Shown here: positions 3,934 through 30,764 of the stretch, piece by piece
Position numbering within the stretch: the first letter of the stretch is position 1
How the letters are laid out: the number at the start of each line of letters is the position of its first letter
The notes under the pieces: model-generated
Database searches by the model: none
Told to the model about the DNA's origin: nothing
The model's input: only the letters and a program-made list of their open reading frames with translations
DNA from: a virus
Lineage: Duplodnaviria; Heunggongvirae; Uroviricota; Caudoviricetes
Direction: 5' to 3' (one strand)
Virus record (IMG/VR): IMGVR_UViG_3300014893_000002
Location: 1-30,764 of that record
Length of the DNA: 30,764 bases
Translations under genes and position numbers: made by a program

Positions 3934-3944
3934 CCCCGGAAGCG

Positions 3945-5035: not shown

Positions 5036-5094
5036 ACTCGTCTCCTGAAAATAAAAAACCCGCCAGCGGCGGGTGGGTAAAATCATTAACGACC

Positions 5095-6220: not shown

Positions 6221-6228
6221 GTCTCCTC

Positions 6229-6546: not shown

Positions 6547-6580
6547 CAGAAACTCCTGCCCGCAACACTGTGCGGGCATA

Positions 6581-6603
6581 AAAAAACCGCGTCGGCGCGG
6601 TCT
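6581..6603 (-). terminator. intrinsic terminator downstream of major capsid gene 1
   Basis: Minus strand reads ACCGCG-CCGA-CGCGGT followed by a run of 7 U. Confidence 0.6.
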
Positions 6604-6622
6604 GTAACTGAACAACGAGTGG

Positions 6623-7840: not shown

Positions 7841-7854
7841 CGTCAGTAGTATCC

Positions 7855-8454
7855 TTATGCATTAAGAAGGGTCAAAAGACGCTCACGCGCCATTCGTTCG
7901 TTAACAGCTTTCTTCAGCGCACCACTCGCCCGCGCTTCCTGCCAGGCTTTCATTGAGCGGACACCAGAGTCTGCGTCCTGATAGGCCGGATATGTCACCG
8001 GGCTGACGTCATACAGACGAGAAATGCGCGTGATTTCCCGGATAACAATCCCCTCGTCGTCTTCATACCAGCTCTCTCCGTCACGGGCGACACGAAACGC
8101 GAACGAGGACTGATTAATGTCACCACGCAACATTGGAGACAGCACCAGGTCACAAATAGTCGGAGTATCCGGTGCAACAATGTCATAACGTAAACCGCGT
8201 TCATCCACCGACAATGACAACGTGCCGGCAGAACTTCGTCCGAGAATGAAATTAGGATCATGATTAAACAAGCCACGTACATCATCATTCAGTACATCAT
8301 CAAAAGCCCCCGGCTTGATGATTTCACGAAATCCCCACAGAGGTTCTGAACGACTGTTAAATACCGAGCCATACCCCAGAATGTGGGTCGGGGCATTATC
8401 ATATTGTTCCGCCCGCACCTCCCCGCTGTAACAGCGCGTTTCACGGTCATTCAT
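7855..8454 (-). CDS. prohead protease, HK97 gp4 family (head module 1)
   Basis: 199 aa with ..GYGSVFN.., ..KPGAFDD.. and ..PAY.. pattern typical of caudovirus prohead proteases; sits between portal and capsid genes. Confidence 0.85.
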   Translation of the reverse strand: MNDRETRCYSGEVRAEQYDNAPTHILGYGSVFNSRSEPLWGFREIIKPGAFDDVLNDDVRGLFNHDPNFILGRSSAGTLSLSVDERGLRYDIVAPDTPTICDLVLSPMLRGDINQSSFAFRVARDGESWYEDDEGIVIREITRISRLYDVSPVTYPAYQDADSGVRSMKAWQEARASGALKKAVNERMARERLLTLLNA

Positions 8455-9673: not shown

Positions 9674-9820
9674 GTTTTCTCCTCATGGACACCACCAGTG
9701 CATAAAGCAGCAACAAACAGCCCGACAGCATCAGAGACGCTGGCAGACCTGCATACAGATAAACGCCAGCAGTGAGCAAACCGAAACCGATCAGCCCGGT
9801 CATATCAGTAATAAGCTGTT

Positions 9821-10584
9821 TCACAGAATTAACAGGTCCTCATCAGGATCAAGCGTGGACAGAAAGTCATTCACGCCCCCTCCATTTACCAGAAAGCGGC
9901 TCATGGCTGTAAAAAGCGCAACAGGGCCGTCGATTTTGGCTTCCGGCGTGGATTTATTCGGGAAGATGTTGTCGTTTTTGTCCGGTTTTACAGTAACGTT
10001 AGACATCATCCAGTTCATGACCGGATGATTGCTGTGATGGAAACGCCCGGCATAAACCAGTGATTCCGTTTCCTTCATGGCCTCTGACAGATTGCGGACC
10101 GTCTGCGGAACCTCCACCAGCGGTATCCCTTCTTCAGCCAGTGCCAGGCTGAACTGCATTGCGCTCCACGGGTCAAATCCCAGTTCCCTGAGGTTTTCAC
10201 CGCCAATCCATTCCAGTAAGTCACTTTTTATCTGAGCATGATCGATAACATCACCATCCGTCAGGATGAGCTTATCCATCTCCGCCCACTTCCGGTAAAG
10301 TTCTGCCTGCTGCCGCGAGCATCGTTCCAGCCGTCCTTCCGGAAGCCAGAATTTAAAATCAGCATGAACATGTCCGTTATCGGTTCGCCAGAGTTTTGCC
10401 GCCGCACAGATATCAATCTTATGAGCAAGGTCGACGCCGACCCACATGGGATATGTTTTCAGCTCATGTTGTGGAGCAATGTATTCGCACTTCTCCCACT
10501 TAATCATATCCATCCAGGCAGATTCGGCAGTGACCCACACATTCATGTGTTTGGTAAGAATATTTCAAGTTTTTTAAAATCACC
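9821..10584 (-). pseudogene. terminase large subunit remnant (C-terminal nuclease-domain portion only)
   Basis: The 241 aa ORF aligns residue-by-residue to the C-terminal part of the intact TerL at 11074-12741, from about residue 330 to its end (e.g. LTKHMNVW vs LTKRFNIW, WVGVDLAHKIDI vs YAGLDLSSTSDI). No N-terminal ATPase domain; upstream frames are broken by stops and a frameshift, but weak homology can be followed to about 10584. Confidence 0.7.
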
Positions 10585-10615
10585 TGTATATCAATCATTT
10601 AACATGAAAAAACAG
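10585..10615 (+). other. candidate Mu-type terminal sequence (element end, putative transposase-binding site)
   Basis: TGTATATCAATCATTTAACATGAAAAAACAG begins with 5'-TG and resembles, from memory, the phage Mu left-end terminus (TGTATTGATTCACTTGAAGTACGAAAAAAAC). It lies exactly where TerL homology stops. Confidence 0.4.
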
Positions 10616-10838
10616 TCTTTATAAATCATCAAGCAATACACAGCGCAATACACGTATCTGTATTGTTTTAATGCTGATACACACCGTTTTTTTGATACAG
10701 TGATTCGACCTACCATCGCGAAGCATTTTTTATTTCTTGTGTGTAACAATCTGACGAGGTGAGCACTCAAAGAGATAAGAGGCAGTAGAAATTTCGATCC
10801 CCCCTGAATGCAATTTTTCGTATATATATACAAAACAG

Positions 10839-10865
10839 CGCGGGTTATGCGGGTTAGCGGGTTAT
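10839..10865 (+). repeat. three tandem 9 bp direct repeats (GCGGGTTAT, GCGGGTTAG, CGGGTTATC)
   Basis: Read directly from the sequence in an AT-rich non-coding region downstream of TerL. Confidence 0.8.
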
Positions 10866-10941
10866 CTTCGCGTGCTAAGTATTTTTTACTCTTTAATATC
10901 AATACGTTAAAAAACAACGTATTTAAATATCAGCCAGAGTG

Positions 10942-10994
10942 TAACCCGCAAGACATTCAAAATAACCCGCAAACACCCCTCAAAAAACCCGCAA
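10942..10994 (+). repeat. three copies of (T)AACCCGCAA at about 22 bp spacing, inverted relative to the GCGGGTTA repeats
   Basis: TAACCCGCAA at 10942 and 10964, AACCCGCAA at 10987; reverse complement of the GCGGGTTA unit about 80 bp upstream. Confidence 0.8.
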
Positions 10995-11073
10995 AAACAT
11001 CCCTGAAAGTGGGTGCCGGTAATACTGAAAATTTATTCCATTAAATGAGCATTGTCCTCTCTCATCCATTCCG

Positions 11074-12741
11074 TTACACACCATCAAACGCCGCAAGCCG
11101 CTCTTTGTGGCTGTCGCTCATATCAAATGCAAATTCCTCATGCTCTGCCTGGAATGTGCCAAACGCCATCAGCGCCGCAACGCTCGGGTCTATCTTGTTG
11201 GATGATTTTTTCTTGTTCGGCTTGATATTGGCGTTCGCGTCACTCTGCATCACAACATTACACATTGACCAGGCCAGCACCGGATCGCCACGATGCACAA
11301 TCACCTTCCGGTTAACAAAAACTTCGAACGATTTCGCCGCCGGACTGAAACGAAGGTATGTTTGCGGGAACGGCTCCACCTCAAATCCTGCCCCCTGTAG
11401 CTGCGTCCTCAGGTGCGTAGCGTTCCATGTATCGAAGCCCACCAGCCTGATATTGAAATTCTCTGCATCCGCCATGATGTCATCACGGATACGGTCATAA
11501 TCAATGCAGTCACCCGGTGTTGTGCGTATCCAGCCCGCCTTTACCCACTGGCGATAGATGGCGCGGTTTTTATTAGCGGGGTTCTGTAGCTGAAATTCCG
11601 GCAGATAGTGACGGGAAACCAGCATAATCTTTTTACCGACCGGAAAGGCATAGCACACGCTGGAAATATCGCTGGTTGATGATAAGTCCAGCCCTGCGTA
11701 GCACTCCTGCCCGTATAAATCCGCCTCCGCGAACGTTCCGGCGCACTCCGCCCATGCACCATTACCCATCCACGGCGTAGCCCCCTGACACCAGATATTG
11801 AATCGCTTGGTGAGCATTTCCACCCACTGCGACGGAATACCCCGCGCTTTCTGGATGGTTGAGGCCAGTTTTTCACGATCGACGGAAACATCGATATTGG
11901 GATTCGCCTTTATCCACATCGCCGGATCGTCAACCTCGCTTTCATCATCCAGCTCGTAAATCAGCACGAACATGGATTCGTTCACCTCTTCACCATCCAG
12001 TATCTGGCAGCAATAGTCGTAGTGTTGTTTACAGGCTGAAACAACGTTGCTCCCCGATGTGGTGATGGCAAATAATAACCCCTCCGGACGCGCCCCCATT
12101 CCCAGTTCAAGCGCGGAATAAACCCCGTTGTCAGGGTGCAGGTGATATTCATCCACAATGGCAAGACTCGGGTTCTTCCCCTCAATGGTTGCCGCTTTTG
12201 CTGCCAGTGGCTTTAACAGGCTGTTGGTTTTCGGGTGTATCACCTTGTTCGCCTGAATATTTACCCGCTTTCGTAACGGTCGGGATAAAAGGCACATCTG
12301 ACGCGCATCATCAAACACGATCCGCGCCTGATCACGACTCACGGCGGCGGTGTAAATATCCTGCTGCCCGTTTTCCATAACCAGAAACCAGTTAGCCAGG
12401 ATAGCGGCGACCGTGGATTTGGCATTTTTTCGCGGTACTTCAATGAATGCGCTGGTGTATTTGCGCCGTCCGGTGGCCTTAACCTTAAAGCCCAGGATGC
12501 ACGCAAAGGCGAACTGCTGCCACGGCTCCAGTTCAATGGGGCTACCGTGCATTGCGCCTTTTACGTGCGGGCACACCCTGGAAAAGGCAATAAACCGCTC
12601 CACGACCTCCGAATCGAACATATAAAGGGGGTTTTCAAGGTCAGAAAAATACCGTTTAACGGTCTGTTTCAGTCGTTTACAGGCCGTAATTTTGCCGTTT
12701 TTTACGCCTTCTGCGTACTCATGCCAGGCGGTCAAGCTCAT
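11074..12741 (-). CDS. terL: terminase large subunit (intact)
   Basis: 555 aa with an N-terminal ATPase region and a C-terminal nuclease-type region (..AGLDLSSTSDISS.., ..VGFDTWNA..); start overlaps the TerS 3' end. Confidence 0.9.
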   Translation of the reverse strand: MSLTAWHEYAEGVKNGKITACKRLKQTVKRYFSDLENPLYMFDSEVVERFIAFSRVCPHVKGAMHGSPIELEPWQQFAFACILGFKVKATGRRKYTSAFIEVPRKNAKSTVAAILANWFLVMENGQQDIYTAAVSRDQARIVFDDARQMCLLSRPLRKRVNIQANKVIHPKTNSLLKPLAAKAATIEGKNPSLAIVDEYHLHPDNGVYSALELGMGARPEGLLFAITTSGSNVVSACKQHYDYCCQILDGEEVNESMFVLIYELDDESEVDDPAMWIKANPNIDVSVDREKLASTIQKARGIPSQWVEMLTKRFNIWCQGATPWMGNGAWAECAGTFAEADLYGQECYAGLDLSSTSDISSVCYAFPVGKKIMLVSRHYLPEFQLQNPANKNRAIYRQWVKAGWIRTTPGDCIDYDRIRDDIMADAENFNIRLVGFDTWNATHLRTQLQGAGFEVEPFPQTYLRFSPAAKSFEVFVNRKVIVHRGDPVLAWSMCNVVMQSDANANIKPNKKKSSNKIDPSVAALMAFGTFQAEHEEFAFDMSDSHKERLAAFDGV

Positions 12742-13075
12742 CCTCTTCCTCTGTTTCCGGTGGATTTCTGCGACGGCTTACCGGGTCAAAACCCAGCAAA
12801 GAAGCCATTTTGATCATTATTCTTTCCGCGTCAGCCTTTGCGCTCAGGGCCGGGTTTCTGCTCTCGCTGCCCTGACTGTTAACAATGCTGAACCCGCGCG
12901 TCGCAAGGTCTTCGACGGCTTTGCGGTATATGGAGTAGTTAACGCAATACAGTTCCAGATTGCTCCAGTCGGCGGGGGTAAGGTCTTCCCGCCCGGAAAG
13001 CTGCCGCGATTTTTCCTTCCACTGCTTTACCGCGATTTCATCCAGGTAAGCGGGGGCTTTTGGTGGTCTTGCCAT
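12719..13075 (-). CDS. terS: terminase small subunit, P27 family
   Basis: Starts MARPPKAPAYL.., the characteristic N-terminus of P27-family small terminases. The track ORF runs from 13216, but that region is more likely non-coding. Confidence 0.8.
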   Translation of the reverse strand: MARPPKAPAYLDEIAVKQWKEKSRQLSGREDLTPADWSNLELYCVNYSIYRKAVEDLATRGFSIVNSQGSESRNPALSAKADAERIMIKMASLLGFDPVSRRRNPPETEEEDELDRLA

Positions 13076-13363
13076 GTTCTTTTTTCGCCCAATTATTTTC
13101 AAAAAAATTCCCGTGCACAAAAATTTGAGGAGGCGGTCGGTGTCCGGCAGGGACGGTTTCGTCCTGAAAACCTCCCCCACCCCCTCTGACGACTTCACCA
13201 GCGATTGCGAAAACATTCCATGACCTCGCGGTCACGGTCGGTTAATCGCTTCGCTGTGGTGCGTTCTGTGCGTCCTATCCTGTTGGCTTTGTGCCCTGTC
13301 TCCTGTGTCTTCCATAAGTCACGCTGCCTTATCAGTCCACGTATCAGCCTGTTTTGCTCCTGT

Positions 13364-13804
13364 TCAGTCATCATCGCCATACATCCAGTCGTTACGATGT
13401 GCCGCCCGTTCTTCCTGCTCGCGATACATGCCCGCCTTACGGTTCGCTTTCGTGGCTGGATCTTCCCGTGTCGTCTTACGGTTGTGGCACGTCTGGCACA
13501 ATGCCTGGTGGTTCCACTCAGGCCAGAAGAGAACATCACCGCCGCCATTGATGGGGATAATGTGATCCACCACAAAGGCTGGCGTATAAATACCCTCAGC
13601 CAGACAACGCACACATAACGGATTTTTTTTCAGGTACAGGGCGCGATATTTGTCCCACTGTCGGGAATACCCGCGCGCGCGGCGGTGTCCCCGTCTGGCA
13701 TCCTCTGCACGCCATGCGGCCCGCCTGTGTTCTTCACACTTGCCGGACTTCACGCGCTTATTACAGCCCGGCTCTGTGCATCGCCTTAATGGTTGCCACG
13801 GCAT
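13364..13804 (-). CDS. HNH endonuclease (packaging-associated)
   Basis: Cys-rich N-terminus and HNH core (..VVDHIIPINGGG..NHQALCQTCHNRKT..); located immediately upstream of TerS as in HK97-type cos phages. Confidence 0.85.
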   Translation of the reverse strand: MPWQPLRRCTEPGCNKRVKSGKCEEHRRAAWRAEDARRGHRRARGYSRQWDKYRALYLKKNPLCVRCLAEGIYTPAFVVDHIIPINGGGDVLFWPEWNHQALCQTCHNRKTTREDPATKANRKAGMYREQEERAAHRNDWMYGDDD

Positions 13805-14100
13805 CAGTACACCCCCACATCACGATAAACCGACCAGAGCGCGGAAATCGTCAGGGGAATTTCTTTTGTATCTGTATCGCCAAGCGTTGTCCGGTACTCG
13901 TACAGTTGCGAGATGTACATCAGGCAGCCAATTTTTATTGCAGGGGTAAATTCCAGGCCATCATCAAAACGCCTACCAATATGTTTCTGACATACCTCCA
14001 GCGCCGCGCTTATGTATGCCTGAATCAGTGTGTCTTCTGTGTTACCGTCTATGCGGCAGTGAAGTTTGGCTTCTTCCAGGGTTATTTTTTCTGCTGTCAT
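13804..14100 (-). CDS. head-tail connector protein (gp6-like), head module 2
   Basis: 98 aa; paralog of 6229-6546 (..L.E.K.H.RID..D.LI..YI.AA..). ATGA overlap with the HNH start. Confidence 0.65.
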   Translation of the reverse strand: MTAEKITLEEAKLHCRIDGNTEDTLIQAYISAALEVCQKHIGRRFDDGLEFTPAIKIGCLMYISQLYEYRTTLGDTDTKEIPLTISALWSVYRDVGVY

Positions 14101-14435
14101 TTTTCTGTACCCACCTTTGCCAGAATTTCCAGCCGGGTTCTTTTCGCATCAGGTAAGGGGATCCCGATGATATTAAGCGTGCTCCCGGCAAAAGCACCGG
14201 TAAGCACTTTCAGTCGACTGGCGGCGGATATGTCGCCACGATAGCGAACCCATACCCGAATCGTTGCAGGTGCGGTTTCTGCGCCTGCGGTCAGTAATTC
14301 CCGTCCGCTGATCCCCTTGACCTCTGCCCAGATGGTTTCCCCTTCCGTCCATATCTGCCGGATCGCTCCTGACGGCAGGCGCTGCGTGATAAATGTCATA
14401 ATCGTCACCCGGTCCCGCATATTTCCGGCTATCAT
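14097..14435 (-). CDS. head-tail adaptor / head closure protein (SPP1 gp16-like), head module 2
   Basis: 112 aa; shares VWAEVKGISGRE, SRLKVLTGAF and TRLEIL with the copy at 5882-6220, roughly 60 percent identity by eye. Confidence 0.75.
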   Translation of the reverse strand: MIAGNMRDRVTIMTFITQRLPSGAIRQIWTEGETIWAEVKGISGRELLTAGAETAPATIRVWVRYRGDISAASRLKVLTGAFAGSTLNIIGIPLPDAKRTRLEILAKVGTEK

Positions 14436-15655
14436 TCGTCACCGCCCTGACTGTTCTTGCTGATTGTCACTTCCTGCTTCCATGCCTGGCTGAACTCGTC
14501 GCCACCTTCACGCGGCGGCATTCCCTCACGCTCACGGGCTTCGTTCGGATTCATGATCCCGTTCTTAATCCCTTTCTCATACGTGGCGTAACGTTCGGTA
14601 GGGGTGGCGCGTAATAAATCAGCTGAATCAAACTCAACCAGATAACGGGTACCGGGTACGGGAGAAGCCACCAGCAAAGCGGCCTTGATTTGCTGTTCGA
14701 AGTTCGCCAGCCACGGGCGCATTGTCATGGTCAGAAACGCGCGGCTTGCCTCGCTGAAATTGCTGTAGGTGCTGTTGCTGTATTCCTGCAGAAAAATAGG
14801 CGATACGTTGAACATCCGGGCGATGTCTTCAATGGAGAAGCGACGGGAGGCCAGCCATTCCGCATCCTGGTTACTCATTCCCAGTTGCTTGTAATCCATG
14901 CCCCCTTCAAGGATTGGCGTTTTTCCGGCATTTTTCGCCCCCTTGTAGCGTTCCAGAGCATCCAATGCCTGTTTACCTTTCACGCCGTCCAGCCATTCGC
15001 CTGACGTGATAATCCCTGCCGCCATCATGCCATCTTTCATAATGCTGGCTCCGTGGCGCTGTTGAGCAAGGCCAAGCCCAAGTGCCTCACGGCAAATCGT
15101 GACAGGGGAGCGCCCCAGAAAGCCATCATCCGAGGCATAGCGGAGATGCAGAACTTCTTCCTGTAAATACGTGCGCACCGTTCCTGTATAGGGTTCGGTG
15201 ATGGTATAGCGGTATTTGTGTGCGCCTGTGCGTTCCGGTACAACACAACCCGGTGCATAAGGATGAAGTGATTTTGGCTGACCGTCCCGCCCCCACTCAA
15301 TAACCGCATAGGCGTTACCGTTCAGCAGGCAGTGACGCATCATTGTGCGTTTAAACTGGTAAGGTGTCTGGCACGAATTAGGCTGCTCATTCAGCAGAAT
15401 ATCTACCGGATGACTGTCCAGCCATTCCCGCGCCTCCCTGCCCTTGTCATTACGTACCAGATACAGATAACAAGGCATCGTGGCCACCGCCTCAGCGATG
15501 ACAGAAACCGCGTTCATCACTGCAGGCAATGATTCAGCCGTCCCGGCAGAAACATATTCTCCGGATCCGGTATTCGGTACGCCGGCCAGCGCCAGAAAAT
15601 CATCAATGGACAGGTTACGTTGCTCACTTTTTTTACGACTAAAAGGCCACCACAT
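14432..15655 (-). CDS. portal protein, HK97 family (head module 2)
   Basis: HK97-type portal motifs (..LLNGNAY.., ..GMSNQDAEWLASRRFSIEDIARMFNVSP.., ..NPNEAREREGMPP..GGDE). Start placed at ATG 15655, just after the protease stop; the track start at 15745 overlaps the protease gene. Confidence 0.85.
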   Translation of the reverse strand: MWWPFSRKKSEQRNLSIDDFLALAGVPNTGSGEYVSAGTAESLPAVMNAVSVIAEAVATMPCYLYLVRNDKGREAREWLDSHPVDILLNEQPNSCQTPYQFKRTMMRHCLLNGNAYAVIEWGRDGQPKSLHPYAPGCVVPERTGAHKYRYTITEPYTGTVRTYLQEEVLHLRYASDDGFLGRSPVTICREALGLGLAQQRHGASIMKDGMMAAGIITSGEWLDGVKGKQALDALERYKGAKNAGKTPILEGGMDYKQLGMSNQDAEWLASRRFSIEDIARMFNVSPIFLQEYSNSTYSNFSEASRAFLTMTMRPWLANFEQQIKAALLVASPVPGTRYLVEFDSADLLRATPTERYATYEKGIKNGIMNPNEAREREGMPPREGGDEFSQAWKQEVTISKNSQGGDE

Positions 15656-15656
15656 A

Positions 15657-16217
15657 TCACAACCCCGCCAGCTCTGCCCAGCGATGACGATTATTTCCTG
15701 CCGGGCGTAATTCAGGGTGCAGTGCAAACAACGAACGGTGGGCAATCTCCACGCCAGATTCTGGATAAGCAGGCATCGACGTTATCGTGATTTCACGGAG
15801 TTCTGCGGCGGTAACAGTGCGCAGATACGGTTTTTGCGCGATATTCCACTCCTCGCATAATGCGCGAAAGCCAAAGCTCATTCCTGTAATGTCGCCCCGC
15901 TCCACCAGCGTAAGCACATCTTTCCCAAGCTGGGTATCCGGCGGTGTCAGTTCAAAACGTAACCCGGTGTTATCCTCAGTCAGTACCAGAGTGCCGGATT
16001 TGGTACGCCCCAGCAGTCGGGTACAGTCATGCTCATACAGGCAGCGCACATCATTACCCGCAGCCAGATAGTCAGCAAAAGCCCCCGGCGTGAACTGTTC
16101 GCGGAACTCATCCCAGATAATTTCTGAAAGGCTGTTCCAGCGAACGGCATACCCCACCAGCTTTTTATTGCTGGCGGTCAGTTCAGATGTGCGGATTTCA
16201 AAATCGGTGTTTTTCAT
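15657..16217 (-). CDS. prohead protease, HK97 gp4 family (head module 2)
   Basis: 186 aa with ..GYAVRWNS.., ..TPGAF.., ..GMSFGF.. and ..MPAYPESG.. pattern; GGAG RBS. Confidence 0.85.
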   Translation of the reverse strand: MKNTDFEIRTSELTASNKKLVGYAVRWNSLSEIIWDEFREQFTPGAFADYLAAGNDVRCLYEHDCTRLLGRTKSGTLVLTEDNTGLRFELTPPDTQLGKDVLTLVERGDITGMSFGFRALCEEWNIAQKPYLRTVTAAELREITITSMPAYPESGVEIAHRSLFALHPELRPAGNNRHRWAELAGL

Positions 16218-16234
16218 CGGTGTACTCCATAAAG

Positions 16235-16260
16235 CTGAAAAAGGAGGCCGCAGCCTCCTC
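16235..16260 (-). terminator. intrinsic terminator or attenuator between capsid gene 2 and protease gene 2
   Basis: Minus strand reads AGGAGGC-TGCG-GCCTCCT followed by UUUUU. Confidence 0.55.
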
Positions 16261-16271
16261 CTTACTCATGA

Positions 16272-17441
16272 CTAGCCAGCTTTCATTTCCAGAATTTTGA
16301 TGGCGTTTGAATCCACCACACCACCGCCCAGATATTTATCCGTGTGGACCTTGTAGAATCCGGGTTCAGTAATGTTGTCCGGTCGGGTGCGAATACCCGT
16401 TACATGATCAACGATGAAATAACCACGACTGAAATCACCAACCGCGAGCGGTGCTTTTCCTGCGCCGATGTCCGGCATGGACTCCAGGCAGTAAACAGGA
16501 CGACCAAGCAACATATCCGGCGCACCTTCTTTAAGGCTGTCGCGCCAGATATAATCGCCGTTCTCGTTTTTCAGCTTCTGTAGTGTCCCTGCCGTGCCCG
16601 AGTTCATCACCCAGACGGCATTTTTGCGGTATTTCGCTTTCAGCTTGTAGAGAATGTCGATCAGTTCGTCCGCTGTAATGGCGGTTCCACTTGCCGCTAC
16701 CATTTTTTCAATGGTGCCAAAAGCGCGGGTTTTGTCACTGGTCGCTGCACGGGTGTAAGCCATGAAGCCTTTCGGCTTGCCGTTACCGTCGCCATTAACA
16801 AAATCATCCTCTTCGGTGCTGGCGAACGTGTCGGCAATTTCGGAGGATAACCAGCCCAGAATATCCACCTCTGAAAAATCCAGAATTTCCTGCGTGGTTT
16901 TCGGGTAGGCGTAGATAGGATTCAACTTGATGGTTACGCGTTCAATTTTCGGGGTGTTGGTTTCGCTGCGCGCGCTGCCTTCTGTGCCTCGTCCTACAGT
17001 TGCGCCGCCAGTGGAAACCAGTTTCTGAAACTCATTTGATTTTGCGGTCTTCACGGTCGCAATCACGCGCATAACACTGTCATCCTGTAGCTGGCGCATG
17101 ACTTCGCGATCAAGCTCAGGAATTACGGTATATCCGCCATCCCTGCCGCTGTCAGTGCTGGTGGACAGTGATCGCACATCTCCGGTTACGATGTAGTTAC
17201 GCAATTCATCAGATGATAATTTCCGGATACCCGTTCCTGGCTTGCTGCGTTCTTCATCATCCACAGATTCGAGGCGGGAGATTTCTGTGTCGAGGGAATC
17301 GGCTTTTGCACGCAGTTCATCAAACTGTTTGCCCTCGTCATCGTTCAGGCTGCGGTTTTCACTGTCGGCTTTTTCCAGCAGAGATCGCATCTGGTTTTTC
17401 AGGGCGGTTTTTTGCTGGCGGAGTTCGATTAATTTCTTCAT
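16272..17441 (-). CDS. major capsid protein, HK97 fold (head module 2)
   Basis: 389 aa with an N-terminal coiled-coil delta-like domain and the ..DFVNGDGNGKPKGF.. segment matching the HK97 NGDGTG motif. Confidence 0.85.
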   Translation of the reverse strand: MKKLIELRQQKTALKNQMRSLLEKADSENRSLNDDEGKQFDELRAKADSLDTEISRLESVDDEERSKPGTGIRKLSSDELRNYIVTGDVRSLSTSTDSGRDGGYTVIPELDREVMRQLQDDSVMRVIATVKTAKSNEFQKLVSTGGATVGRGTEGSARSETNTPKIERVTIKLNPIYAYPKTTQEILDFSEVDILGWLSSEIADTFASTEEDDFVNGDGNGKPKGFMAYTRAATSDKTRAFGTIEKMVAASGTAITADELIDILYKLKAKYRKNAVWVMNSGTAGTLQKLKNENGDYIWRDSLKEGAPDMLLGRPVYCLESMPDIGAGKAPLAVGDFSRGYFIVDHVTGIRTRPDNITEPGFYKVHTDKYLGGGVVDSNAIKILEMKAG

Positions 17442-17727
17442 GAAGGTTTTCTCGTATTGGTTAAGATTCAGGACGTGAAACCAACACGGAGGGAGCGCCG
17501 CCCGACACTCTCGGAATCTCGCAGATCAACCCGGCATCGCGCAGGGGGTCAGGCGGCATTGTGGCGGCTCACGTCTGAGTGCCACGCTCCAACATATACA
17601 TAAAAATCAGTATGTAAACACCTGTCAGTCAGACCGAACAACCACGAAAGAACACGAACAAATAATTTACAAAAGAAGTAAACCATGGCCTATTATTGCT
17701 GTCTCTGACTACAACAAAGGACGCATC

Positions 17728-18234
17728 ATGAATTTAAGCGCAATGGTATACCCTGATACTTTCATAATTAATGGCGAATCATTCAGAGGTAAAAGAAACG
17801 CAAAAGAAAACAAGGTATTAATTCCATATACAAATGAACCGGAAGTAACTATTGGTCAACACATTATCCAGCGTGTCGGTAAAAACGAGATAAATCTAAA
17901 AATTATAGATATGAAGTTGCTTCCCAATGGAACCCTCAGACAGGGAACCAATCATCCAAATATGTTGACTCTCTATATTGAAAATATCACGGGAAATGAA
18001 CATATGACGCCAACTAAAAGTAATACATTTAACATTGGTTCAATTAGTGGTGATCAAGTGCAGATAGGTGAGCATAACCATATGCTGGTAAACATCAGCA
18101 TCACTGAACTGGTTGAAAAAGTCGCTAAATCGGGGGATGTACAAGCCAAATCAGTATTAAAGCAGTTACTGGAAAACAGTACCGTTGCCAGCATTGTTGG
18201 GGCTGGCGCAAGTGCCCTAATAGGCTTACTGTAA
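17728..18234 (+). CDS. hypothetical protein with C-terminal hydrophobic tail, AT-rich cargo gene
   Basis: 168 aa ORF on the opposite strand to the phage operons, with AAAGGA RBS, markedly lower GC than its surroundings, its own terminator, and a C-terminus ..STVASIVGAGASALIGLL. No recognisable family. Confidence 0.6.
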   Translation: MNLSAMVYPDTFIINGESFRGKRNAKENKVLIPYTNEPEVTIGQHIIQRVGKNEINLKIIDMKLLPNGTLRQGTNHPNMLTLYIENITGNEHMTPTKSNTFNIGSISGDQVQIGEHNHMLVNISITELVEKVAKSGDVQAKSVLKQLLENSTVASIVGAGASALIGLL

Positions 18235-18271
18235 AAAAATGGCCTGGATTTTACCAGGCCTTTATTATTTT
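18233..18271. terminator. bidirectional intrinsic terminator
   Basis: GGCCTGG-ATTTTA-CCAGGCC hairpin flanked by an A-run upstream and a T-run downstream; sits between convergent genes. Confidence 0.65.
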
Positions 18272-18518
18272 ACCGTTTCACGGGATCGCGCATTCTGCGC
18301 CTTATTTTCCACAGATATTCGATCATCGCTTCCACCTGTTCACGGTTGGTTGCGAAAATTTCCCCGGTCAGTGAGCTGCGCAGAAAATCATGATGATCCA
18401 CAACAAACAACGCATCGGAAGAAAGCAGACGGCGATATTTTTTTGCTGTCGTGGTTTCCAGATCATCAAAACCATGAAACTTTTTATGTTGCTGAACTTC
18501 TTCAAATGTCACAGGCAT
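18270..18518 (-). CDS. hypothetical protein
   Basis: 82 aa from ATG 18518 with a strong AGGAGG RBS; no recognisable family. Confidence 0.5.
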   Translation of the reverse strand: MPVTFEEVQQHKKFHGFDDLETTTAKKYRRLLSSDALFVVDHHDFLRSSLTGEIFATNREQVEAMIEYLWKIRRRMRDPVKR

Positions 18519-18563
18519 GTTTCCTCCTGCTACCACGATACCAGAAACAGTTAACAACCGTTA

Positions 18564-18767
18564 TCAATTATCCCTTTTTTTCGGGTAGTTCCTGAACATC
18601 TCACCGCCAGGTTTCTGTAAGCCCATCCCGGTATGTGTGCGGTTTATGGCCTCTTTCAGTATTCCGAAATTATCCGGTATGACTGGTTGGCGCGCTGCCT
18701 TACGGATACATTCAGCGCGACGCTTTGCCACCTGTTCGCGCTCCTTGTCAGTGCTCACCAGCCACAT
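18564..18767 (-). CDS. hypothetical protein
   Basis: 67 aa ORF upstream of 18270-18518 on the same strand; weak RBS. Confidence 0.3.
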   Translation of the reverse strand: MWLVSTDKEREQVAKRRAECIRKAARQPVIPDNFGILKEAINRTHTGMGLQKPGGEMFRNYPKKRDN

Positions 18768-18943
18768 AACATCAGCCCAACGTGCCGCTGCTCTCCGGTA
18801 CAGCTGAAGGGACGTAAGATAAATGAATGGTGATTCGTGAGATAATTTCGAACGGGAGTGGGTTAAAACGAATGCTACCGAATAATTTTATGAAATTGTT
18901 TTGCTGTATGTGAAACGGTAGCAGTTCACAAAAAACAGAGAAT

Positions 18944-19144
18944 ATGAGTGGTAAAATTTCTAATCCGTGTTCCGTGAATGGAGAAATATTGCCCATGCCC
19001 GATAAAAATAGCAACCCATCTGACTTTTCTGAAGATATGAAAGGATGCGTTACCTTTGAGTCAGAACGTTATGGACCATCAGGCGACTCATCAGATAACC
19101 GTTCTTCTCAGTCTGATGACGATGCACCGCCACCACGGGACTAA
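18944..19144 (+). CDS. small acidic Ser/Asp-rich hypothetical protein
   Basis: 66 aa ORF (possibly shorter from an internal Met) ending ..DSSDNRSSQSDDDAPPPRD; convergent with the membrane protein gene. Coding status uncertain. Confidence 0.25.
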   Translation: MSGKISNPCSVNGEILPMPDKNSNPSDFSEDMKGCVTFESERYGPSGDSSDNRSSQSDDDAPPPRD

Positions 19145-19785
19145 TCTTTCTGCCGTGCGCTAATGGCTTTATTTCTGGTTCGTCTGATCCTCACCATGGC
19201 AATCTGATCTGCAGGGATATAGGTTGCCATCGCTCCCCAGCTTTTACTTTCAACATCTTTTTCAATCCATTCATCGCGCCCCGGTTTCTTTTCATGAGTG
19301 ACATACATCACTATGTCTTTTTCCACTCCTAACACAAAAGAACCGCTGGCCTGGCCTTCAAATTTCCCCGGATTTTCAGAAAGCAGCACAGTACCATTCT
19401 TCAGATAGACATACGCCTCGCTGATATAGTATCCATGTTGATCAAACATACGCATCCAGGCAGAGGGGGTATCATCAGACCATGATATATCCTTATTTCT
19501 GAGGAATCTGTACATCCATTTACGCCCATATTTTCTCCATAATGCAGCGTATGCAAAAGCGCAAAGAAGTGTTGGAGGTGTCGCCAGCCACGAATTCAGA
19601 CCTGCCCACATAACAGCCTGGTAAACCATCATTGACAGCAAACCAAAAATCAGCGTCGAAAACGTCACCTCAATGGGTTTGTGATGGTTCTTCAGCCCCA
19701 CGTTCGCAATAAAATAGCCGATATAACCACTGGTGAGCGTCACCAGCGTTGCCCATGGCAGATTCAGCAAGGATGCATCAAACAT
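19141..19785 (-). CDS. integral membrane protein of unknown function
   Basis: 214 aa with several predicted N-terminal transmembrane helices and a soluble C-terminal domain; GGAGG RBS. Separated from the Mor-side genes by a terminator. Confidence 0.6.
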   Translation of the reverse strand: MFDASLLNLPWATLVTLTSGYIGYFIANVGLKNHHKPIEVTFSTLIFGLLSMMVYQAVMWAGLNSWLATPPTLLCAFAYAALWRKYGRKWMYRFLRNKDISWSDDTPSAWMRMFDQHGYYISEAYVYLKNGTVLLSENPGKFEGQASGSFVLGVEKDIVMYVTHEKKPGRDEWIEKDVESKSWGAMATYIPADQIAMVRIRRTRNKAISARQKD

Positions 19786-19817
19786 ATTTCCTCCGGTGAT
19801 ATGTTTTTCTGCCAGAA

Positions 19818-28208: not shown

Positions 28209-28397
28209 TTATGCCGCATTTGACGTGGGTTTTAATCCCAGTTTTACGGCAATTTCATGGGCTTTGCCGTAACGAGCTTTGGTCTGTCCATTGAGAACAC
28301 GATAGACCTCATTGCGGCTGTAGCCGTGTTCTTCGGCCCAGCGGGTAAACGTGATACCACGCTGACGGAAGAGATTTTTAACTTGTTCGGAAGTCAT
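28209..28397 (-). CDS. ner: Ner/Nlp-family DNA-binding protein (Mu Ner-like early regulator)
   Basis: 62 aa; ..LFRQRGITFTRWAEEHGYSRNEVYRVLNG..GKAHEIAVKLGLKP aligns with the Nlp/Ner pattern (..L..KG.S.A..SR..GLS.STLANAL.R..P.GE.IIA.ALG..P). AAGGAG RBS; first gene of the minus-strand early operon. Confidence 0.7.
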   Translation of the reverse strand: MTSEQVKNLFRQRGITFTRWAEEHGYSRNEVYRVLNGQTKARYGKAHEIAVKLGLKPTSNAA

Positions 28398-28448
28398 TGT
28401 TGTCTCCTTTGTTGATGCAATGATGTTTGTTTTATATGTGATAGATTA

Positions 28449-28466
28449 TGAGAACTATTGTTCTCA
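28449..28466. promoter_or_regulatory. candidate operator: perfect inverted repeat TGAGAAC-N4-GTTCTCA in the divergent promoter region
   Basis: Read directly from the sequence, between the divergent Ner-like and XRE-family genes. Confidence 0.5.
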
Positions 28467-28483
28467 TTGTCAATGAGGTTTGT

Positions 28484-28909
28484 GTGAATTTTGATTCTCT
28501 TTGCGCGTCGCGGTTCAAAGCTGAGCGTTCGCGGTTATCACTCAAGCAGGCTGAAGTAGCAGCCCTTTGTGGCGTTTCAAGAGAAATGTGGGGGAAATAT
28601 GAACGAGGGGTTGCTGTTCCCGGAGGTGAGTTACTTGCAGCCTTTGCAAGAATTGGGGCCAATGTACAGTTCATTCTTACCGGGGAGTCATCAGGTATAA
28701 CTTTATCACGTGATGAAATGGAGTTACTGCAGCACTACCGGCAGGCACCATTACAGGTCAAAGGTTCAGTTTTGTCGGCCTTGACTACTGGCTCCTCCAG
28801 AGAACGGGCGGAACAGGTTATTCATGGAGATGTTCTGGGGAATGTTATCAAAGGTAACGTAACCATAGGAACAGGTGGAATAATGAACAAAAATACCAAG
28901 AGAAGATGA
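28484..28909 (+). CDS. XRE-family HTH transcriptional regulator (candidate prophage repressor)
   Basis: HTH_XRE signature ..LSLKQAEVAALCGVSREMWGKYERGVAVPG..; divergent from the Ner-like gene, as for c versus ner in Mu. Start placed at GTG 28484 (GAGG RBS); the track ORF begins at ATG 28448. No LexA-like S24 peptidase domain seen. Confidence 0.7.
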   Translation: MNFDSLCASRFKAERSRLSLKQAEVAALCGVSREMWGKYERGVAVPGGELLAAFARIGANVQFILTGESSGITLSRDEMELLQHYRQAPLQVKGSVLSALTTGSSRERAEQVIHGDVLGNVIKGNVTIGTGGIMNKNTKRR

Positions 28910-29892
28910 GTAAAGAGAAGCAAACAGTTAACGGGGATGTGGGTAACGTTGTCAGCGGTGATGTTACCATTCATAACTATTCTGCTGACATACTTCCTTC
29001 GGCCCAGCAACCAATTTCGTTGCTGCAAAAACGCGATTTACACAGATTGATGGATGAATTGGTTGATCTGGGGGAAAGTAAGCGCGAGCTATGGATGACG
29101 ATCCACACGAAACTTAATACCAAAACAGTTAATGAAATGACTGCGGCTGATTATCATGGTGCGGTTGAGATCCTTCAGAGATATGCACAACAGATCCAGA
29201 ATATGAAGGACTGTAATCTTCTGGTCAGCAAAATAATGGCGCTTACTGACCCTGGGTATCGTCTTGACCGTGACAGATACTGTCTGAAGCATTTCGGTAC
29301 AACCCATCTTAAAGGCCTAGACAAAGAGCAGTTGCAGGCTGTGTTTGGTTATTTTGATGATCTGCTGAATATTCGTGATGAGAGTAAAACTCTATCACCT
29401 CCATCGGAAAGCGGTGCAAAATCAGTCGCAACTGTACCAACCAGAAGCCGGAAGCCTCATGTAGTAGTGTTGGGGGGAGTGTTAGTTCTTGTAGCAATAT
29501 TTTTCGTGGGAATGATTGTGTTCGCTGGTAAATGGGGAAATGCCAAAGCAGTAGCTTCTACTGAAACCAGCGTTTTTAACATTAAAACCAACGATAAAAT
29601 AATAGAAGATTCCATCCCCGCACTGCGCAGCATGTTTCCAGGGTTAAATAAGTACTCAGATGATTTCCATTCGGTTTCAAGCTACAAGCAAAAAACGGGC
29701 TGGCATACCCTTAAATTTACTGTATCAGCAAAGGCATCCGTCCCCGAAAATTATAGTGTTAAGGGCAAGGTTTGTTACATTAACATAAGCCCTGATGGTA
29801 GTTATGCTCGGGTTTTGACTGCTCCATGTCGTTCACTGCTACTTGATCAGCAAAGCACTCCTGACAGTAAATACCGTTTTATTCTTAAATAG
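28906..29892 (+). CDS. hypothetical single-pass membrane protein (repressor-linked cargo)
   Basis: 328 aa; ATG overlaps the XRE stop (ATGA); one central hydrophobic helix (..PHVVVLGGVLVLVAIFFVGMIVFAG..); AT-rich; no recognisable family. Confidence 0.6.
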   Translation: MSKEKQTVNGDVGNVVSGDVTIHNYSADILPSAQQPISLLQKRDLHRLMDELVDLGESKRELWMTIHTKLNTKTVNEMTAADYHGAVEILQRYAQQIQNMKDCNLLVSKIMALTDPGYRLDRDRYCLKHFGTTHLKGLDKEQLQAVFGYFDDLLNIRDESKTLSPPSESGAKSVATVPTRSRKPHVVVLGGVLVLVAIFFVGMIVFAGKWGNAKAVASTETSVFNIKTNDKIIEDSIPALRSMFPGLNKYSDDFHSVSSYKQKTGWHTLKFTVSAKASVPENYSVKGKVCYINISPDGSYARVLTAPCRSLLLDQQSTPDSKYRFILK

Positions 29893-29982
29893 AAAATAAC
29901 AGCTGAATTACCATGGGATCAGAAAAAAGACAAAGGCGGCATCATGCTGCGTTCTGAAATTTTAATGTAAAAGGTGATGAAC

Positions 29983-30564
29983 ATGGCAGGGATTCAGGTT
30001 ATCGCAGGAAGTTTTCCTAAAGGGTGGGCAAGCATGGGGTTCGGTACCATCGTGTTTGCCAAAAAACCAAAACAAGGCTTTCCTGAAAATATTGTATTAA
30101 ATCTGAAAGAAGAGCTTTTATCGATTGAACTTGCGGATAGTGAAGAGGAAAGCCGTATAGGTAAGGCGGCAGGCGCAGGTTTGCTTGGTGGATTAATCTT
30201 TGGTGGTGCAGGGTTGGTCATTGGAGGTTTGCTTGGTGCGGCGGACAAGACGAAAAAAACTATCACTTTTAAGGCAATGTTTACGGGAAATAGGTTACTT
30301 CTGGCTAAAACAGATTCAAAAACTTTTGTAAAACTTCAGTCAATTGCTGCTGATAATGCCCATAACGCATCTGTAATCAACATGAAGCAAACTAATAGGG
30401 GCGATGTTTCTTCTCGTAAACAACTAACAGAAAATCCACAGCAGCAAGACTTACCTGCGCCCGCTACAACAGTAAAAATGACTGCCAAAGATAAGTTAGA
30501 ATCGGCTCTTGGGCTGGGAATCATCGTTATAGCTGTTTGGGCAATAATACACTTCTTTTTTTAG
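29983..30564 (+). CDS. hypothetical glycine-zipper membrane protein (repressor-linked cargo)
   Basis: Start at ATG 29983 with AAGGTGA RBS; glycine-zipper segment ..AAGAGLLGGLIFGGAGLVIGGLLGAA.. and a C-terminal helix ..LGLGIIVIAVWAIIHFFF; followed by a terminator. Confidence 0.6.
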   Translation: MAGIQVIAGSFPKGWASMGFGTIVFAKKPKQGFPENIVLNLKEELLSIELADSEEESRIGKAAGAGLLGGLIFGGAGLVIGGLLGAADKTKKTITFKAMFTGNRLLLAKTDSKTFVKLQSIAADNAHNASVINMKQTNRGDVSSRKQLTENPQQQDLPAPATTVKMTAKDKLESALGLGIIVIAVWAIIHFFF

Positions 30565-30566
30565 TG

Positions 30567-30590
30567 CAGCCCTTCAGGGCTGTTTCTGTT
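30567..30590 (+). terminator. intrinsic terminator ending the plus-strand repressor-linked operon
   Basis: CAGCCC-TTCA-GGGCTG hairpin followed by a T-rich tract (TTTCTGTT), directly after the stop codon at 30562-30564. Confidence 0.6.
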
Positions 30591-30601: not shown

Positions 30602-30764
30602 TTAAGGATTATCCGGGGCGTTTTCCTGTTTGCCGTACTTCGGAGACGAACAACATTCTGTTGGCTGACCGGTGAGTTTACGTAACTCCTTCATGAGCAG
30701 CTCCTGATCGTAAACTGTCATCAGTGCCGCAATGGTGGCATGCAGTGCATCGGGCAGTATCCAG
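30602..30764 (-). CDS. 3' end of an unidentified gene continuing beyond the window
   Basis: Open minus-strand frame from the window edge to a TAA stop at 30602-30604 (..DALHATIAALMTVYDQELLMKELRKLTGQ..); not in the ORF track because the start is outside the window. Confidence 0.35.
   Translation of the reverse strand, partial: WILPDALHATIAALMTVYDQELLMKELRKLTGQPTECCSSPKYGKQENAPDNP

What the first reader, a model, noticed from the sequence alone, without database searches (positions are those of the whole stretch)
28484..30590. Repressor-linked three-gene operon encoding two uncharacterised membrane proteins: candidate superinfection-exclusion or abortive-infection module
Seen in sequence: the XRE regulator, a 328 aa single-pass membrane protein (ATGA-coupled to the regulator) and a 196 aa glycine-zipper protein form a plus-strand unit ending in a terminator. 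It lies opposite the lytic operon, and the two cargo genes are distinctly AT-rich. Established knowledge: genes co-transcribed with prophage repressors are often lysogen-expressed exclusion or defence functions (lambda rexAB/sieB, P22 sieA), and glycine-zipper membrane segments are common in pore-forming or membrane-depolarising effectors. Neither cargo protein matches a family I recognise.
Basis: partly seen in the sequence, partly recalled or inferred. Interest (0 to 1): 0.7.

Follow-up and report, generated by a model that had tools for sequence, protein, structure and literature searches.

The report
Phage repressor twinned with membrane partner
This is the lysogeny-control operon of a Mu-like prophage, and its repressor ends in a short motif that is repeated at the start of the membrane protein encoded next to it; the motif pair changes in step across many phages, which suggests an undescribed physical link between a phage repressor and the cell membrane.

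Summary
The three genes, the ATGA overlap, the membrane segments, the low G+C and the terminator-like hairpin are all present. The element is a BcepMu-like transposable prophage of E. coli. The unit lies in the middle of the prophage, between the early operon and the late operon.

It is not one module. Gene 1 (XRE repressor) and gene 2 (328 aa) form a translationally coupled pair. The pair is conserved in BcepMu-like prophages of many Proteobacteria, in phages BcepMu (gp17/gp18) and KS10 (gp13/gp12), and in P2/186-like prophages. Gene 3 (193 aa) is a PH-like domain with a glycine zipper and a tail anchor (Pfam PH_gly_zipper). It is a swappable moron.

The main result is a twin motif. The repressor's C-terminal tail and the partner's N-terminus carry the same ~20-residue motif. 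The motif differs between lineages but stays matched within each pair (0 of 100,000 permutations reach the cognate score). It is the most conserved part of both proteins and is not a recent DNA duplication.

I infer that the two motifs bind each other and couple the repressor to a membrane-anchored Flk_N protein. Exclusion or abortive infection remains untested: neither protein matches a known defence family. It is most plausible for gene 3.

The parts
28445..28473 (-). Early promoter (TTGACA-17-CATAAT, 11 of 12 matches) driving the Ner-like/transposase operon
28448..28467 (.). Perfect 20-bp palindrome ATGAGAAC-TATT-GTTCTCAT in the spacer of the early promoter; candidate repressor operator
   Evidence: single match in the window; 0.11 expected by chance
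28209..28397 (-). Ner-like 62-aa HTH protein, first gene of the divergent early operon
   Evidence: phrog_925, E 1e-32
28484..28909 (+). XRE-family repressor, 141 aa (RefSeq start ATG 28448 gives 153 aa); homologue of BcepMu gp17 and KS10 gp13
28814..28870 (+). Twin motif, copy 1: repressor tail QVIHGDVLGNVIKGNVTIG, followed by the basic end NKNTKRR
28906..29892 (+). Gene 2, 328-aa bitopic inner-membrane protein, start overlapping the XRE stop (ATGA)
28918..28980 (+). Twin motif, copy 2: partner N-terminus KQTVNGDVGNVVSGDVTIHNY (disordered in the AF2 model)
29011..29376 (+). Cytoplasmic helical Flk_N domain (residues about 36-157; pLDDT above 90)
29464..29520 (+). Transmembrane helix (residues 187-205), preceded by the basic TRSRKPH, so N-in/C-out
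29566..29889 (+). Periplasmic alpha/beta domain (residues 221-328; two conserved Cys); homologous to a stand-alone 177-aa lipoprotein in other prophages
29983..30564 (+). Gene 3, 193 aa (196 aa from GTG 29974): PH-like domain with an inserted glycine-zipper hairpin and a C-terminal tail anchor (PF27000 PH_gly_zipper); a swappable moron
30160..30246 (+). Glycine-zipper segment of gene 3 (residues about 60-88)
30505..30561 (+). C-terminal hydrophobic anchor of gene 3 (residues 175-193)
30566..30590 (+). Terminator-like hairpin plus T-rich tail, lying between the converging gene 3 and the P-loop gene

Best explanation
The region is the lysogeny (immunity) operon of a BcepMu-like transposable prophage, and it has two evolutionary layers. 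Layer 1 is genes 1 and 2. Gene 1 is the XRE-type repressor. It most likely binds the 20-bp palindrome in the spacer of the divergent early promoter and shuts off the Ner-like/transposase operon. Gene 2 is its dedicated partner, made by translational coupling. It is an N-in/C-out inner-membrane protein with a disordered N-terminal motif, a cytoplasmic Flk_N helical domain, one transmembrane helix and a periplasmic domain that exists elsewhere as a separate lipoprotein. The repressor's C-terminal tail and the partner's N-terminus carry the same ~20-residue Gly/Asn/Val-rich motif. I infer that the two copies bind each other homotypically, by beta-strand pairing or a small beta-solenoid or amyloid-like stack. 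That would bring part of the repressor pool to the membrane protein. The interaction could either pass a membrane or periplasmic signal to the repressor (controlling maintenance or induction) or make the membrane protein's activity depend on the repressor. Layer 2 is gene 3. It is an independent, lysogen-expressed moron: a cytoplasmic PH-like domain carrying a glycine-zipper hairpin and a tail anchor, so a membrane-active protein and the best candidate here for an exclusion or abortive-infection function. Shown: gene anatomy, conservation of the pair, co-variation of the motif, domain assignments, exchangeability of gene 3. Inferred: repressor function, motif-motif binding, direction and purpose of the coupling, and any defence role.
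Against: No experiment or complex prediction shows that the two motifs bind; AF2 jobs were single-chain only. One lineage with a Gly/Val/His-rich tail has a non-matching DUF4236 neighbour (L018/L049), and a few partners show no clear TM segment. Many XRE relatives without such a tail show no match, so the rule applies to a subclass. The repressor role is assigned from position, HTH family and annotation of homologues, not from a functional test. The co-variation could also arise if both motifs are read by a third, phage-specific factor.
Confidence: 0.55

Rival explanations
1. One reading: genes 2 and 3 are lysogen-expressed superinfection-exclusion or abortive-infection effectors that merely ride on the repressor transcript. 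The shared motif would then be an accessory feature, for example a switch that keeps a membrane effector silent while repressor is abundant.
For: Repressor-linked position, low G+C and membrane location. The periplasmic module of gene 2 occurs elsewhere as a stand-alone prophage lipoprotein; from my own knowledge, that type includes receptor-blocking exclusion proteins such as Cor and Llp. Gene 3 is a swappable moron with a glycine zipper, found behind two unrelated repressor types. An E. coli prophage defence pair that signals through a shared C-terminal/N-terminal motif exists: Bab/Agp (doi 10.1101/2024.11.07.622273).
Against: Neither protein matches any PADLOC model at E < 0.01 (gene 3 has none at <=0.1; gene 2's best is E 0.014), and there are no relevant Pfam or NCBIfam defence hits. 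Gene 2 is conserved with the repressor across unrelated phage types instead of varying like a defence moron. The conserved features across partners are the motif and, usually, a membrane anchor, not any effector-like domain.
Confidence: 0.25
2. Gene 2 acts like host Flk. Through its Flk_N domain it would bind the flagellar type III export gate and alter flagellar assembly or FlgM secretion in lysogens, changing motility or sensitivity to flagellum-dependent phages.
For: Residues 19-147 match NCBIfam PRK10715 Flk (E 2.9e-12). Homologues carry a precomputed Pfam Flk_N hit. Short homologues have Flk's topology, with a cytoplasmic bulk and a C-terminal anchor. [quoted passage not shown]
Against: The score of 46.6 bits is far below the 353-bit family cut-off, and only the N-terminal domain matches. 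Which part of Flk contacts the export gate is not established in what I read. Partners in other lineages lack Flk_N yet keep the twin motif. This reading does not explain the motif shared with the repressor.
Confidence: 0.1
3. The two motifs do not bind each other. Both would be recognised by a third factor, such as a protease or adaptor, or a phage antirepressor. The membrane protein would then act as a decoy or competitor that tunes repressor turnover.
For: From my own knowledge, the C-terminal tail of the Mu repressor governs its ClpXP sensitivity, so tails of transposable-phage repressors can be regulated degrons. The tail ends in a conserved basic stretch that the partner lacks.
Against: Different flavours coexist in the same host species: types A and B both occur in E. 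coli. No third motif-bearing protein was found in 49 kb of the prophage, and no co-varying third gene was identified.
Confidence: 0.12
4. Genes 1 and 2 are a toxin-antitoxin-like addiction pair, with an XRE antitoxin and a membrane toxin, rather than the phage immunity module.
For: Weak HTH-level similarity of the XRE protein to MqsA, HipB and PezA antitoxin models, and a two-gene translationally coupled layout.
Against: Those hits cover only the generic HTH and lie far below the family cut-offs. The gene sits where BcepMu and KS10 have their annotated repressor. It faces the early promoter, which contains a palindrome, and it is the only plus-strand HTH gene facing the early operon in this stretch. 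In the P2-like context the pair sits in the operon that also holds the integrase.
Confidence: 0.05

Closest known systems
BcepMu gp17 (Cro/CI-type repressor) and gp18 (membrane protein); KS10 gp13 and gp12
   Same: Same genome position between the Ner-like early operon and the holin. Same XRE repressor family. In BcepMu, the same 4-nt overlap with the downstream gene (KS10 gp13 and gp12 are separated by about 50 nt). Both pairs have a matching tail/N-terminus motif.
   Different: The motif flavour differs. gp18 and KS10 gp12 were not tested for Flk_N similarity, and neither has the periplasmic module of the window protein. No function is published for gp18 or gp12 in the papers I could search.
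Amyloid-signalling gene pairs: fungal HET-S/NWD2, bacterial BASS pairs (Bell + NLR), and E. coli Bab/Agp
   Same: A ~20-residue Gly/Asn/Gln and hydrophobic motif sits at the C-terminus of one protein and at the N-terminus of the product of the adjacent collinear gene. There are many sequence flavours that match within pairs, and the motif is disordered in the monomer model.
   Different: Here the C-terminal motif is on a DNA-binding repressor, not a pore-forming Bell/HeLo effector, and the N-terminal motif is on a small membrane protein, not an NLR/STAND or TPR sensor. Amyloid formation is untested, and I could not compare with BASS profiles.
Lambda cI-rexA-rexB (and sieB, P22 sieA): lysogen-expressed exclusion genes co-transcribed with a repressor
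   Same: Membrane protein genes sit downstream of the repressor in the maintenance transcript. Gene 3 in particular behaves as such a moron.
   Different: No sequence or domain similarity. From my own knowledge, no shared motif between Rex proteins and cI has been reported. Gene 2 is conserved with the repressor across phage types.
Flk (RflH/Fluke), flagellar export regulator of Salmonella and E. coli
   Same: Flk_N-type helical cytoplasmic domain. Short homologues share the tail-anchored topology.
   Different: Only the N-domain is related (46.6 bits against a 353-bit cut-off). The window protein has an extra N-terminal twin motif and a periplasmic domain, and it is phage-encoded and repressor-coupled.
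Pfam PF27000 PH_gly_zipper, often found with a SHOCT domain
   Same: Gene 3 has the PH-like sandwich with an inserted glycine zipper. There are 210 remote relatives, many of about 118 aa or with SHOCT.
   Different: Gene 3 ends in a hydrophobic tail anchor instead of SHOCT. I found no function reported for the family.

Membership tests
BcepMu-like (Bcepmuvirus-type) transposable prophage | Early operon with a Ner-like HTH protein, rve transposase, AAA/ExeA-like B protein, Gam and Mor, divergent from the repressor; then holin/SLT lysis genes and Mu-type head genes | tested here: met
   DNA match to Escherichia phage PhiKM, classified in Bcepmuvirus. Same gene order as BcepMu.
XRE/Cro-CI-type phage repressor | N-terminal HTH_3/HTH_31 domain | tested here: met
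   PF13560 at 30.5 bits (cut-off 27) and PF01381 at 23 bits (cut-off 23); phrog_8 and phrog_2328.
XRE/Cro-CI-type phage repressor | Divergent from the lytic promoter, with a dyad-symmetric operator in that promoter | tested here: met
   An 11-of-12 promoter at 28473-28445 with a unique perfect palindrome at 28448-28467 in its spacer. This is sequence evidence only.
XRE/Cro-CI-type phage repressor | Represses lytic genes and confers immunity | not testable with these tools
   Needs DNA-binding and immunity assays. Homologues BcepMu gp17 and KS10 gp13 are annotated as repressors.
Flk (NCBIfam PRK10715 equivalog) | Full-length match above the curated cut-off of 353 bits | tested here: not met
   46.6 bits; only residues 19-147 align, to profile positions 14-143 of 339.
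Flk_N domain (Pfam PF27202) | Match to the Flk_N profile | tested here: met
   Precomputed PF27202 hits on P0001 (the 90% cluster representative, one residue different from the window protein in the alignment) and on relatives. My own HMM of the region recovers partners in 9 further genera at E <= 1e-27. The model is not in my local Pfam copy.
Flk | Cytoplasmic protein held by a C-terminal membrane anchor with almost nothing in the periplasm | tested here: not met
   The window protein has about 120 residues after the TM helix that form a confident domain. The short 187-209-aa homologues do meet this feature.
Amyloid-signalling gene pair (HRAM/BASS type) | Short shared motif at the C-terminus of one protein and the N-terminus of the adjacent collinear gene product | tested here: met
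Amyloid-signalling gene pair (HRAM/BASS type) | The N-terminal motif is on an NLR/STAND-like or other large sensor, and the C-terminal motif is on a membrane-targeting cell-death effector | tested here: not met
   The carriers are an HTH repressor and a small membrane protein.
Amyloid-signalling gene pair (HRAM/BASS type) | The motif forms amyloid fibrils or templated aggregates | not testable with these tools
   Needs peptide fibrillation tests, ThT and Congo red binding, and foci assays, as done for Bab/Agp.
Amyloid-signalling gene pair (HRAM/BASS type) | Match to a published BASS/HRAM motif profile | not tested
   The profiles are not available in these tools.
Known anti-phage defence or exclusion systems (PADLOC-DB; RexAB, SieA, SieB) | Sequence match to a defence protein model | tested here: not met
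   Gene 2's best hit is PDC-M19B at E 0.014. Gene 3 has none. The XRE protein gives only generic HTH hits.
PH_gly_zipper (Pfam PF27000) | PH-like beta-sandwich with an inserted glycine-zipper segment | tested here: met

The most novel reading that the evidence does not exclude
The twin motif is a functional templating or beta-zipper signal. Clustering or a conformational change of the membrane partner, triggered by an envelope or periplasmic cue or by an incoming phage, would nucleate assembly of the repressor tails. That would remove repressor from the operator (an SOS-independent induction or anti-immunity pathway) or, conversely, lock it in place. This would be amyloid-like signalling applied to a phage lysis-lysogeny switch, and it would be widespread in Mu-like and P2-like prophages of Proteobacteria.
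Probability: 0.15. Interest if true: 0.9.

Novelty: new variant of a known kind. Interest (0 to 1): 0.72.

Why it matters
Repressor-linked membrane genes are usually filed as exclusion morons. Here one of them is a fixed partner of the repressor, and the two share a co-evolving peptide motif. That layout is so far known only from amyloid-signalling immune gene pairs. If the motifs bind, it would define a new input to prophage maintenance or induction: a membrane-anchored partner wired directly to the repressor. The input would be present in BcepMu-type phages, including those of Burkholderia cepacia complex pathogens, and in about 2% of complete E. coli genomes (127 of 5,426). It would also give a first functional handle on the Flk_N domain. 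The prediction is cheap to test with proline substitutions and motif swaps. Separately, gene 3 is a compact member of the uncharacterised PH_gly_zipper family sitting in a defined lysogen-expressed slot, which makes that family approachable experimentally.

Tried and rejected
- **Defence models.** Neither downstream protein matches a PADLOC model at E < 0.01.
- **Local Pfam and NCBIfam.** Nothing for gene 3 and only sub-threshold hits for gene 2, apart from the Flk N-domain.
- **Cultured phages.** tblastn found no homologue of gene 3 and only distant partial matches of gene 2.
- **The search for related loci with the Flk_N alignment.** It failed for lack of a conserved stretch. I used the XRE alignment instead.
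- **Recent duplication or gene conversion as the origin of the twin motif.** Rejected: 58-69% DNA identity and different codons at identical residues.
- **Third copy of the motif in the prophage.** None found in 49 kb.
- **Module at the prophage end, as with Mu c.** Rejected from the IAI39 annotation.
- **ATG 28448 as the XRE start.** Judged unlikely, because it lies inside the early promoter and operator.
- **Photorhabdus XreR1/XreR2 (PMC7905540).** This is a different locus with ccdAB between the two genes.
- **Literature.** No paper in the searchable library combines 'amyloid signaling', 'prophage' and 'repressor'. Searches combining Flk with prophage/repressor/membrane protein, and combining 'glycine zipper', 'PH domain' and SHOCT, returned nothing relevant.
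Full report
**1. Observation**

- **XRE gene.** It runs from GTG 28484 (GAGG 5 nt upstream) to 28909.
- **Gene 2.** It starts at 28906, inside ATGA, and encodes 328 aa with a single strongly hydrophobic segment at residues 187-205.
- **Gene 3.** It encodes 193 aa from ATG 29983 (196 aa from GTG 29974), with a glycine-zipper stretch and a C-terminal hydrophobic anchor.
- **Terminator.** A 7-bp GC-rich hairpin with a T-rich tail follows at 30566-30590. By the tools' own controls it is unremarkable (z = -1.66; 2.9 such sites expected).
- **Base composition.** G+C falls from 0.536 in the early region to 0.47, 0.43 and 0.42 in the three genes.
- **Start codon.** The RefSeq start for the XRE gene (ATG 28448) lies inside a near-consensus minus-strand promoter (TTGACA-17-CATAAT, 28473-28445). 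The spacer of that promoter holds a perfect 20-bp palindrome, ATGAGAAC-TATT-GTTCTCAT, which is unique in the window. It also marks the likely early promoter and operator.

**2. Context**

The window is E. coli chromosome. The region from about 20,000 to the end is the early half of a BcepMu-like transposable prophage. On the minus strand it carries Mor, Gam, an ExeA-like AAA protein, an rve transposase, DUF3102, an IclR-type HTH protein and a Ner-like HTH protein. Its DNA matches Escherichia phage PhiKM, classified in Bcepmuvirus.

In strain IAI39 the same DNA continues with a convergent P-loop gene, then holin, SLT endolysin and Mu-type head genes. The unit therefore sits in the middle of the prophage, where BcepMu has gp17-gp20 and KS10 has gp13-gp11. 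It is not at an end.

**3. Two layers, not one operon of cargo**

The XRE gene plus gene 2 occurs in 127 of 5,426 complete E. coli genomes. Gene 3 occurs in 97-102.

In relatives the XRE gene and a gene 2 homologue stay together, usually with the same 4-nt overlap, while the next gene changes:

| Host / locus | Gene after the pair |
|---|---|
| Salmonella | 89 aa |
| Yersinia | 249 aa |
| Serratia marcescens | none |
| E. coli B7A | 203 aa plus DUF2441 |
| Loci with a short gene 2 (L010/L011) | 177-aa lipoprotein |

Conversely, a gene 3 homologue sits directly behind a different, CI-type 121-aa repressor, with no gene 2, in another widespread lineage. PhiKM carries unrelated minus-strand genes in this slot.

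So genes 1 and 2 are a fixed pair and gene 3 is a moron.

**4. The proteins**

*Gene 2.* The AF2 model, built from 20 homologues, shows five parts:
- a disordered N-terminus (residues 1-30);
- a confident helical domain (31-157);
- a low-confidence linker;
- a TM helix;
- a confident alpha/beta domain (221-328).

The helical domain is Flk_N. NCBIfam Flk matches residues 19-147 (E 2.9e-12) but scores far below the family cut-off, and homologues carry precomputed Pfam PF27202 hits. Basic residues before the TM helix and two conserved cysteines after it indicate N-in/C-out topology.

The periplasmic domain is homologous to a stand-alone 177-aa lipoprotein. That lipoprotein is encoded after short (187-209 aa) Flk_N-TM proteins and after an unrelated repressor in KP12_2. 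The 328-aa protein is therefore a fusion of two modules. Neither domain has a significant match among solved structures.

**5. The twin motif**

The repressor ends ...ERAEQVIHGDVLGNVIKGNVTIGTGGIMNKNTKRR. Gene 2 begins MSKEKQTVNGDVGNVVSGDVTIHNY.

Among flavour-A homologues these are the most conserved parts of both proteins:
- partner: motif 0.90 mean pairwise identity, Flk_N 0.71, periplasmic domain 0.57;
- repressor: tail 0.87, HTH 0.59.

Other lineages have different tails, and in each the downstream protein's N-terminus has changed in the same way:

| Locus | Repressor tail | Partner N-terminus |
|---|---|---|
| P2/186-like prophage | VNVSGNGNRVAGRDYNEKK | VNSSGDQNRTAGRDFTENR |
| Dickeya | QVFHGNVSGQFAGNQIVN | QEFNGTASGQFSARDIIN |
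| Photorhabdus | KITGNGNRIAGRDYNEH | KINGDNNRVAANDYHEY |

The Photorhabdus partner is a Zn-ribbon plus TM protein, not Flk_N.

Statistics:
- In eight hand-checked loci, 6 of 40,320 permutations reach the cognate sum.
- A scan of 185,579 species genomes with the XRE alignment returned 80 loci.
- Among 42 dereplicated pairs, 0 of 100,000 permutations reach the cognate sum, and 11 pairs exceed the 99th percentile of non-cognate scores.
- Clear matches occur in Serratia, Pectobacterium, Brenneria, Enterobacter, Orbaceae, Gilliamella, Pseudomonas, Francisella, Actinobacillus, Acidovorax, Polaromonas, Comamonas and Thiomicrorhabdus.
- The cultured phages BcepMu (gp17/gp18) and KS10 (gp13/gp12) show it too.

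The two coding segments are only 58-69% identical, with different codons at identical residues. The resemblance is therefore maintained at the protein level. No third copy exists in the 49 kb examined.

Exceptions: a Burkholderiaceae lineage with a DUF4236 neighbour, and XRE relatives that lack such a tail.

**6. Mechanism**

*Shown.* The anatomy, the conserved coupling and the co-variation.

*Inferred.* Co-variation within pairs, with several flavours coexisting in one host species, is best explained by direct and specific motif-motif contact. A tail-anchored or bitopic membrane protein would then hold or nucleate the repressor's C-terminal tails.

The layout is that of HET-S/NWD2, the bacterial BASS pairs and E. 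coli Bab/Agp: a C-terminal motif in one protein and an N-terminal motif in the next gene's product, with a Gly/Asn-rich alternating pattern that is disordered in the monomer. In those systems the N-terminal copy on the sensor templates the C-terminal copy on the effector.

By analogy the membrane protein would signal to the repressor. The carriers here are entirely different, however, and amyloid formation is untested. I therefore give the templating version only about 0.15. I give about 0.55 to the broader claim that the pair is physically coupled through the motif and that gene 2 belongs functionally to the repressor module.

The rivals are set out in the Rival explanations section: pure exclusion or abortive-infection cargo, a Flk-like effect on flagellar export, a shared degron or decoy, and a toxin-antitoxin pair.

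For gene 3, the most likely role is a lysogen-expressed membrane-active accessory protein. Exclusion or abortive infection is plausible but has no homology support.

**7. Comparison and novelty**

No paper in the searchable library combines 'amyloid signaling', 'prophage' and 'repressor', and my searches on Flk with prophage terms found nothing relevant.

The locus is a new variant of two known kinds: repressor-linked lysogen-expressed membrane genes, and twin-motif gene pairs. It is not a member of the Flk equivalog, not a member of any PADLOC system, and not a canonical BASS pair.

**8. Verdict**

- The real interest lies in the repressor-partner twin motif, which is widespread, statistically solid and directly testable.

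Noticed in passing
window 1-17441 (minus strand): A second, unrelated prophage region lies next to the Mu-like element. It has two HK97-type head gene sets: portals at 8447-9673 and 14432-15745, and major capsids at 6623-7840 and 16272-17441. It also has a large terminase (11074-12741) and a 1081-aa tape measure (357-3602). The upstream set runs in the unusual order capsid, then portal. This could be tandem prophages or a capsid-encoding satellite.
   Followed up: partly
window 17500-19800: A low-G+C stretch (0.41-0.46) lies between the two prophage regions. Its ORFs have no Pfam hit: 17728-18234 (+), 18239-18595 (+) and 19141-19785 (-). The left boundary of the Mu-like prophage probably lies near here.
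   Followed up: no
window 30602-30764 (minus strand; continues beyond the window; L001:10203-10679): A convergent 158-aa P-loop protein annotated 'ABC transporter ATPase'; only weak AAA/KAP/HerA-like hits. It is 242 aa in phage PhiKM (L002:5737-6465). It is another variable gene of the same slot, present in some relatives (L010) and absent in others (B7A).
   Followed up: partly
L022 (Escherichia phage 520873, NC_049344), about 2770-3700: This P2-like phage has a repressor with the tail LNISGGNNRIAGRDYNETKGR. Downstream is an unannotated Flk_N gene beginning MAVNSNGSNNRVAGRDFHEKN, and it is broken across three reading frames. It is either a pseudogene or a sequencing error.
   Followed up: partly
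L030-L034 (Lonsdalea), L043-L046 (Pseudomonas), L061, L090: A different repressor class has a long helical C-terminal domain (...RVLKLVVNR) and no Gly/Asn tail. It is followed by a protein that carries a similar-looking motif about 30 residues in, rather than at the extreme N-terminus (ITISVGGDNPGSIHV, KIKGDYGNINLG, VRIDGSHNIVGDG). Some of these proteins have weak Flk_N similarity. What that motif pairs with is unknown.
   Followed up: no
L018/L049/L050 (Burkholderiaceae MAGs): The repressor tail is rich in G, V and H (IRIDGTVHGHVVQGDVVQHG), but the neighbouring gene is a DUF4236 protein with no matching N-terminus. This is an exception to the twin-motif rule.
   Followed up: partly
L011:2295-2828 and L021:2986-3519 (Klebsiella phage KP12 clone KP12_2): A stand-alone 177-aa lipoprotein (lipobox LVGC/LSGC) is homologous to the periplasmic domain of gene 2. 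The record named KP12 (Vequintavirinae) contains a BcepMu-like segment with a transposase and an IclR-type HTH gene. This suggests a co-assembled prophage rather than part of that virulent phage.
   Followed up: no
L001:13171-13716 (E. coli IAI39): The DUF3486 (Mu gp27-like small terminase) gene of the IAI39 copy is annotated as a pseudogene with an internal stop. That copy of the prophage may therefore be defective.
   Followed up: no
window 28289-28332: Further half-site-like repeats of the operator arm lie inside the Ner-like gene (CATTGAGAACA at 28289-28299, and AGAACACG / CGTGTTCT at 28294-28301 / 28325-28332). They may be secondary operators.
   Followed up: no
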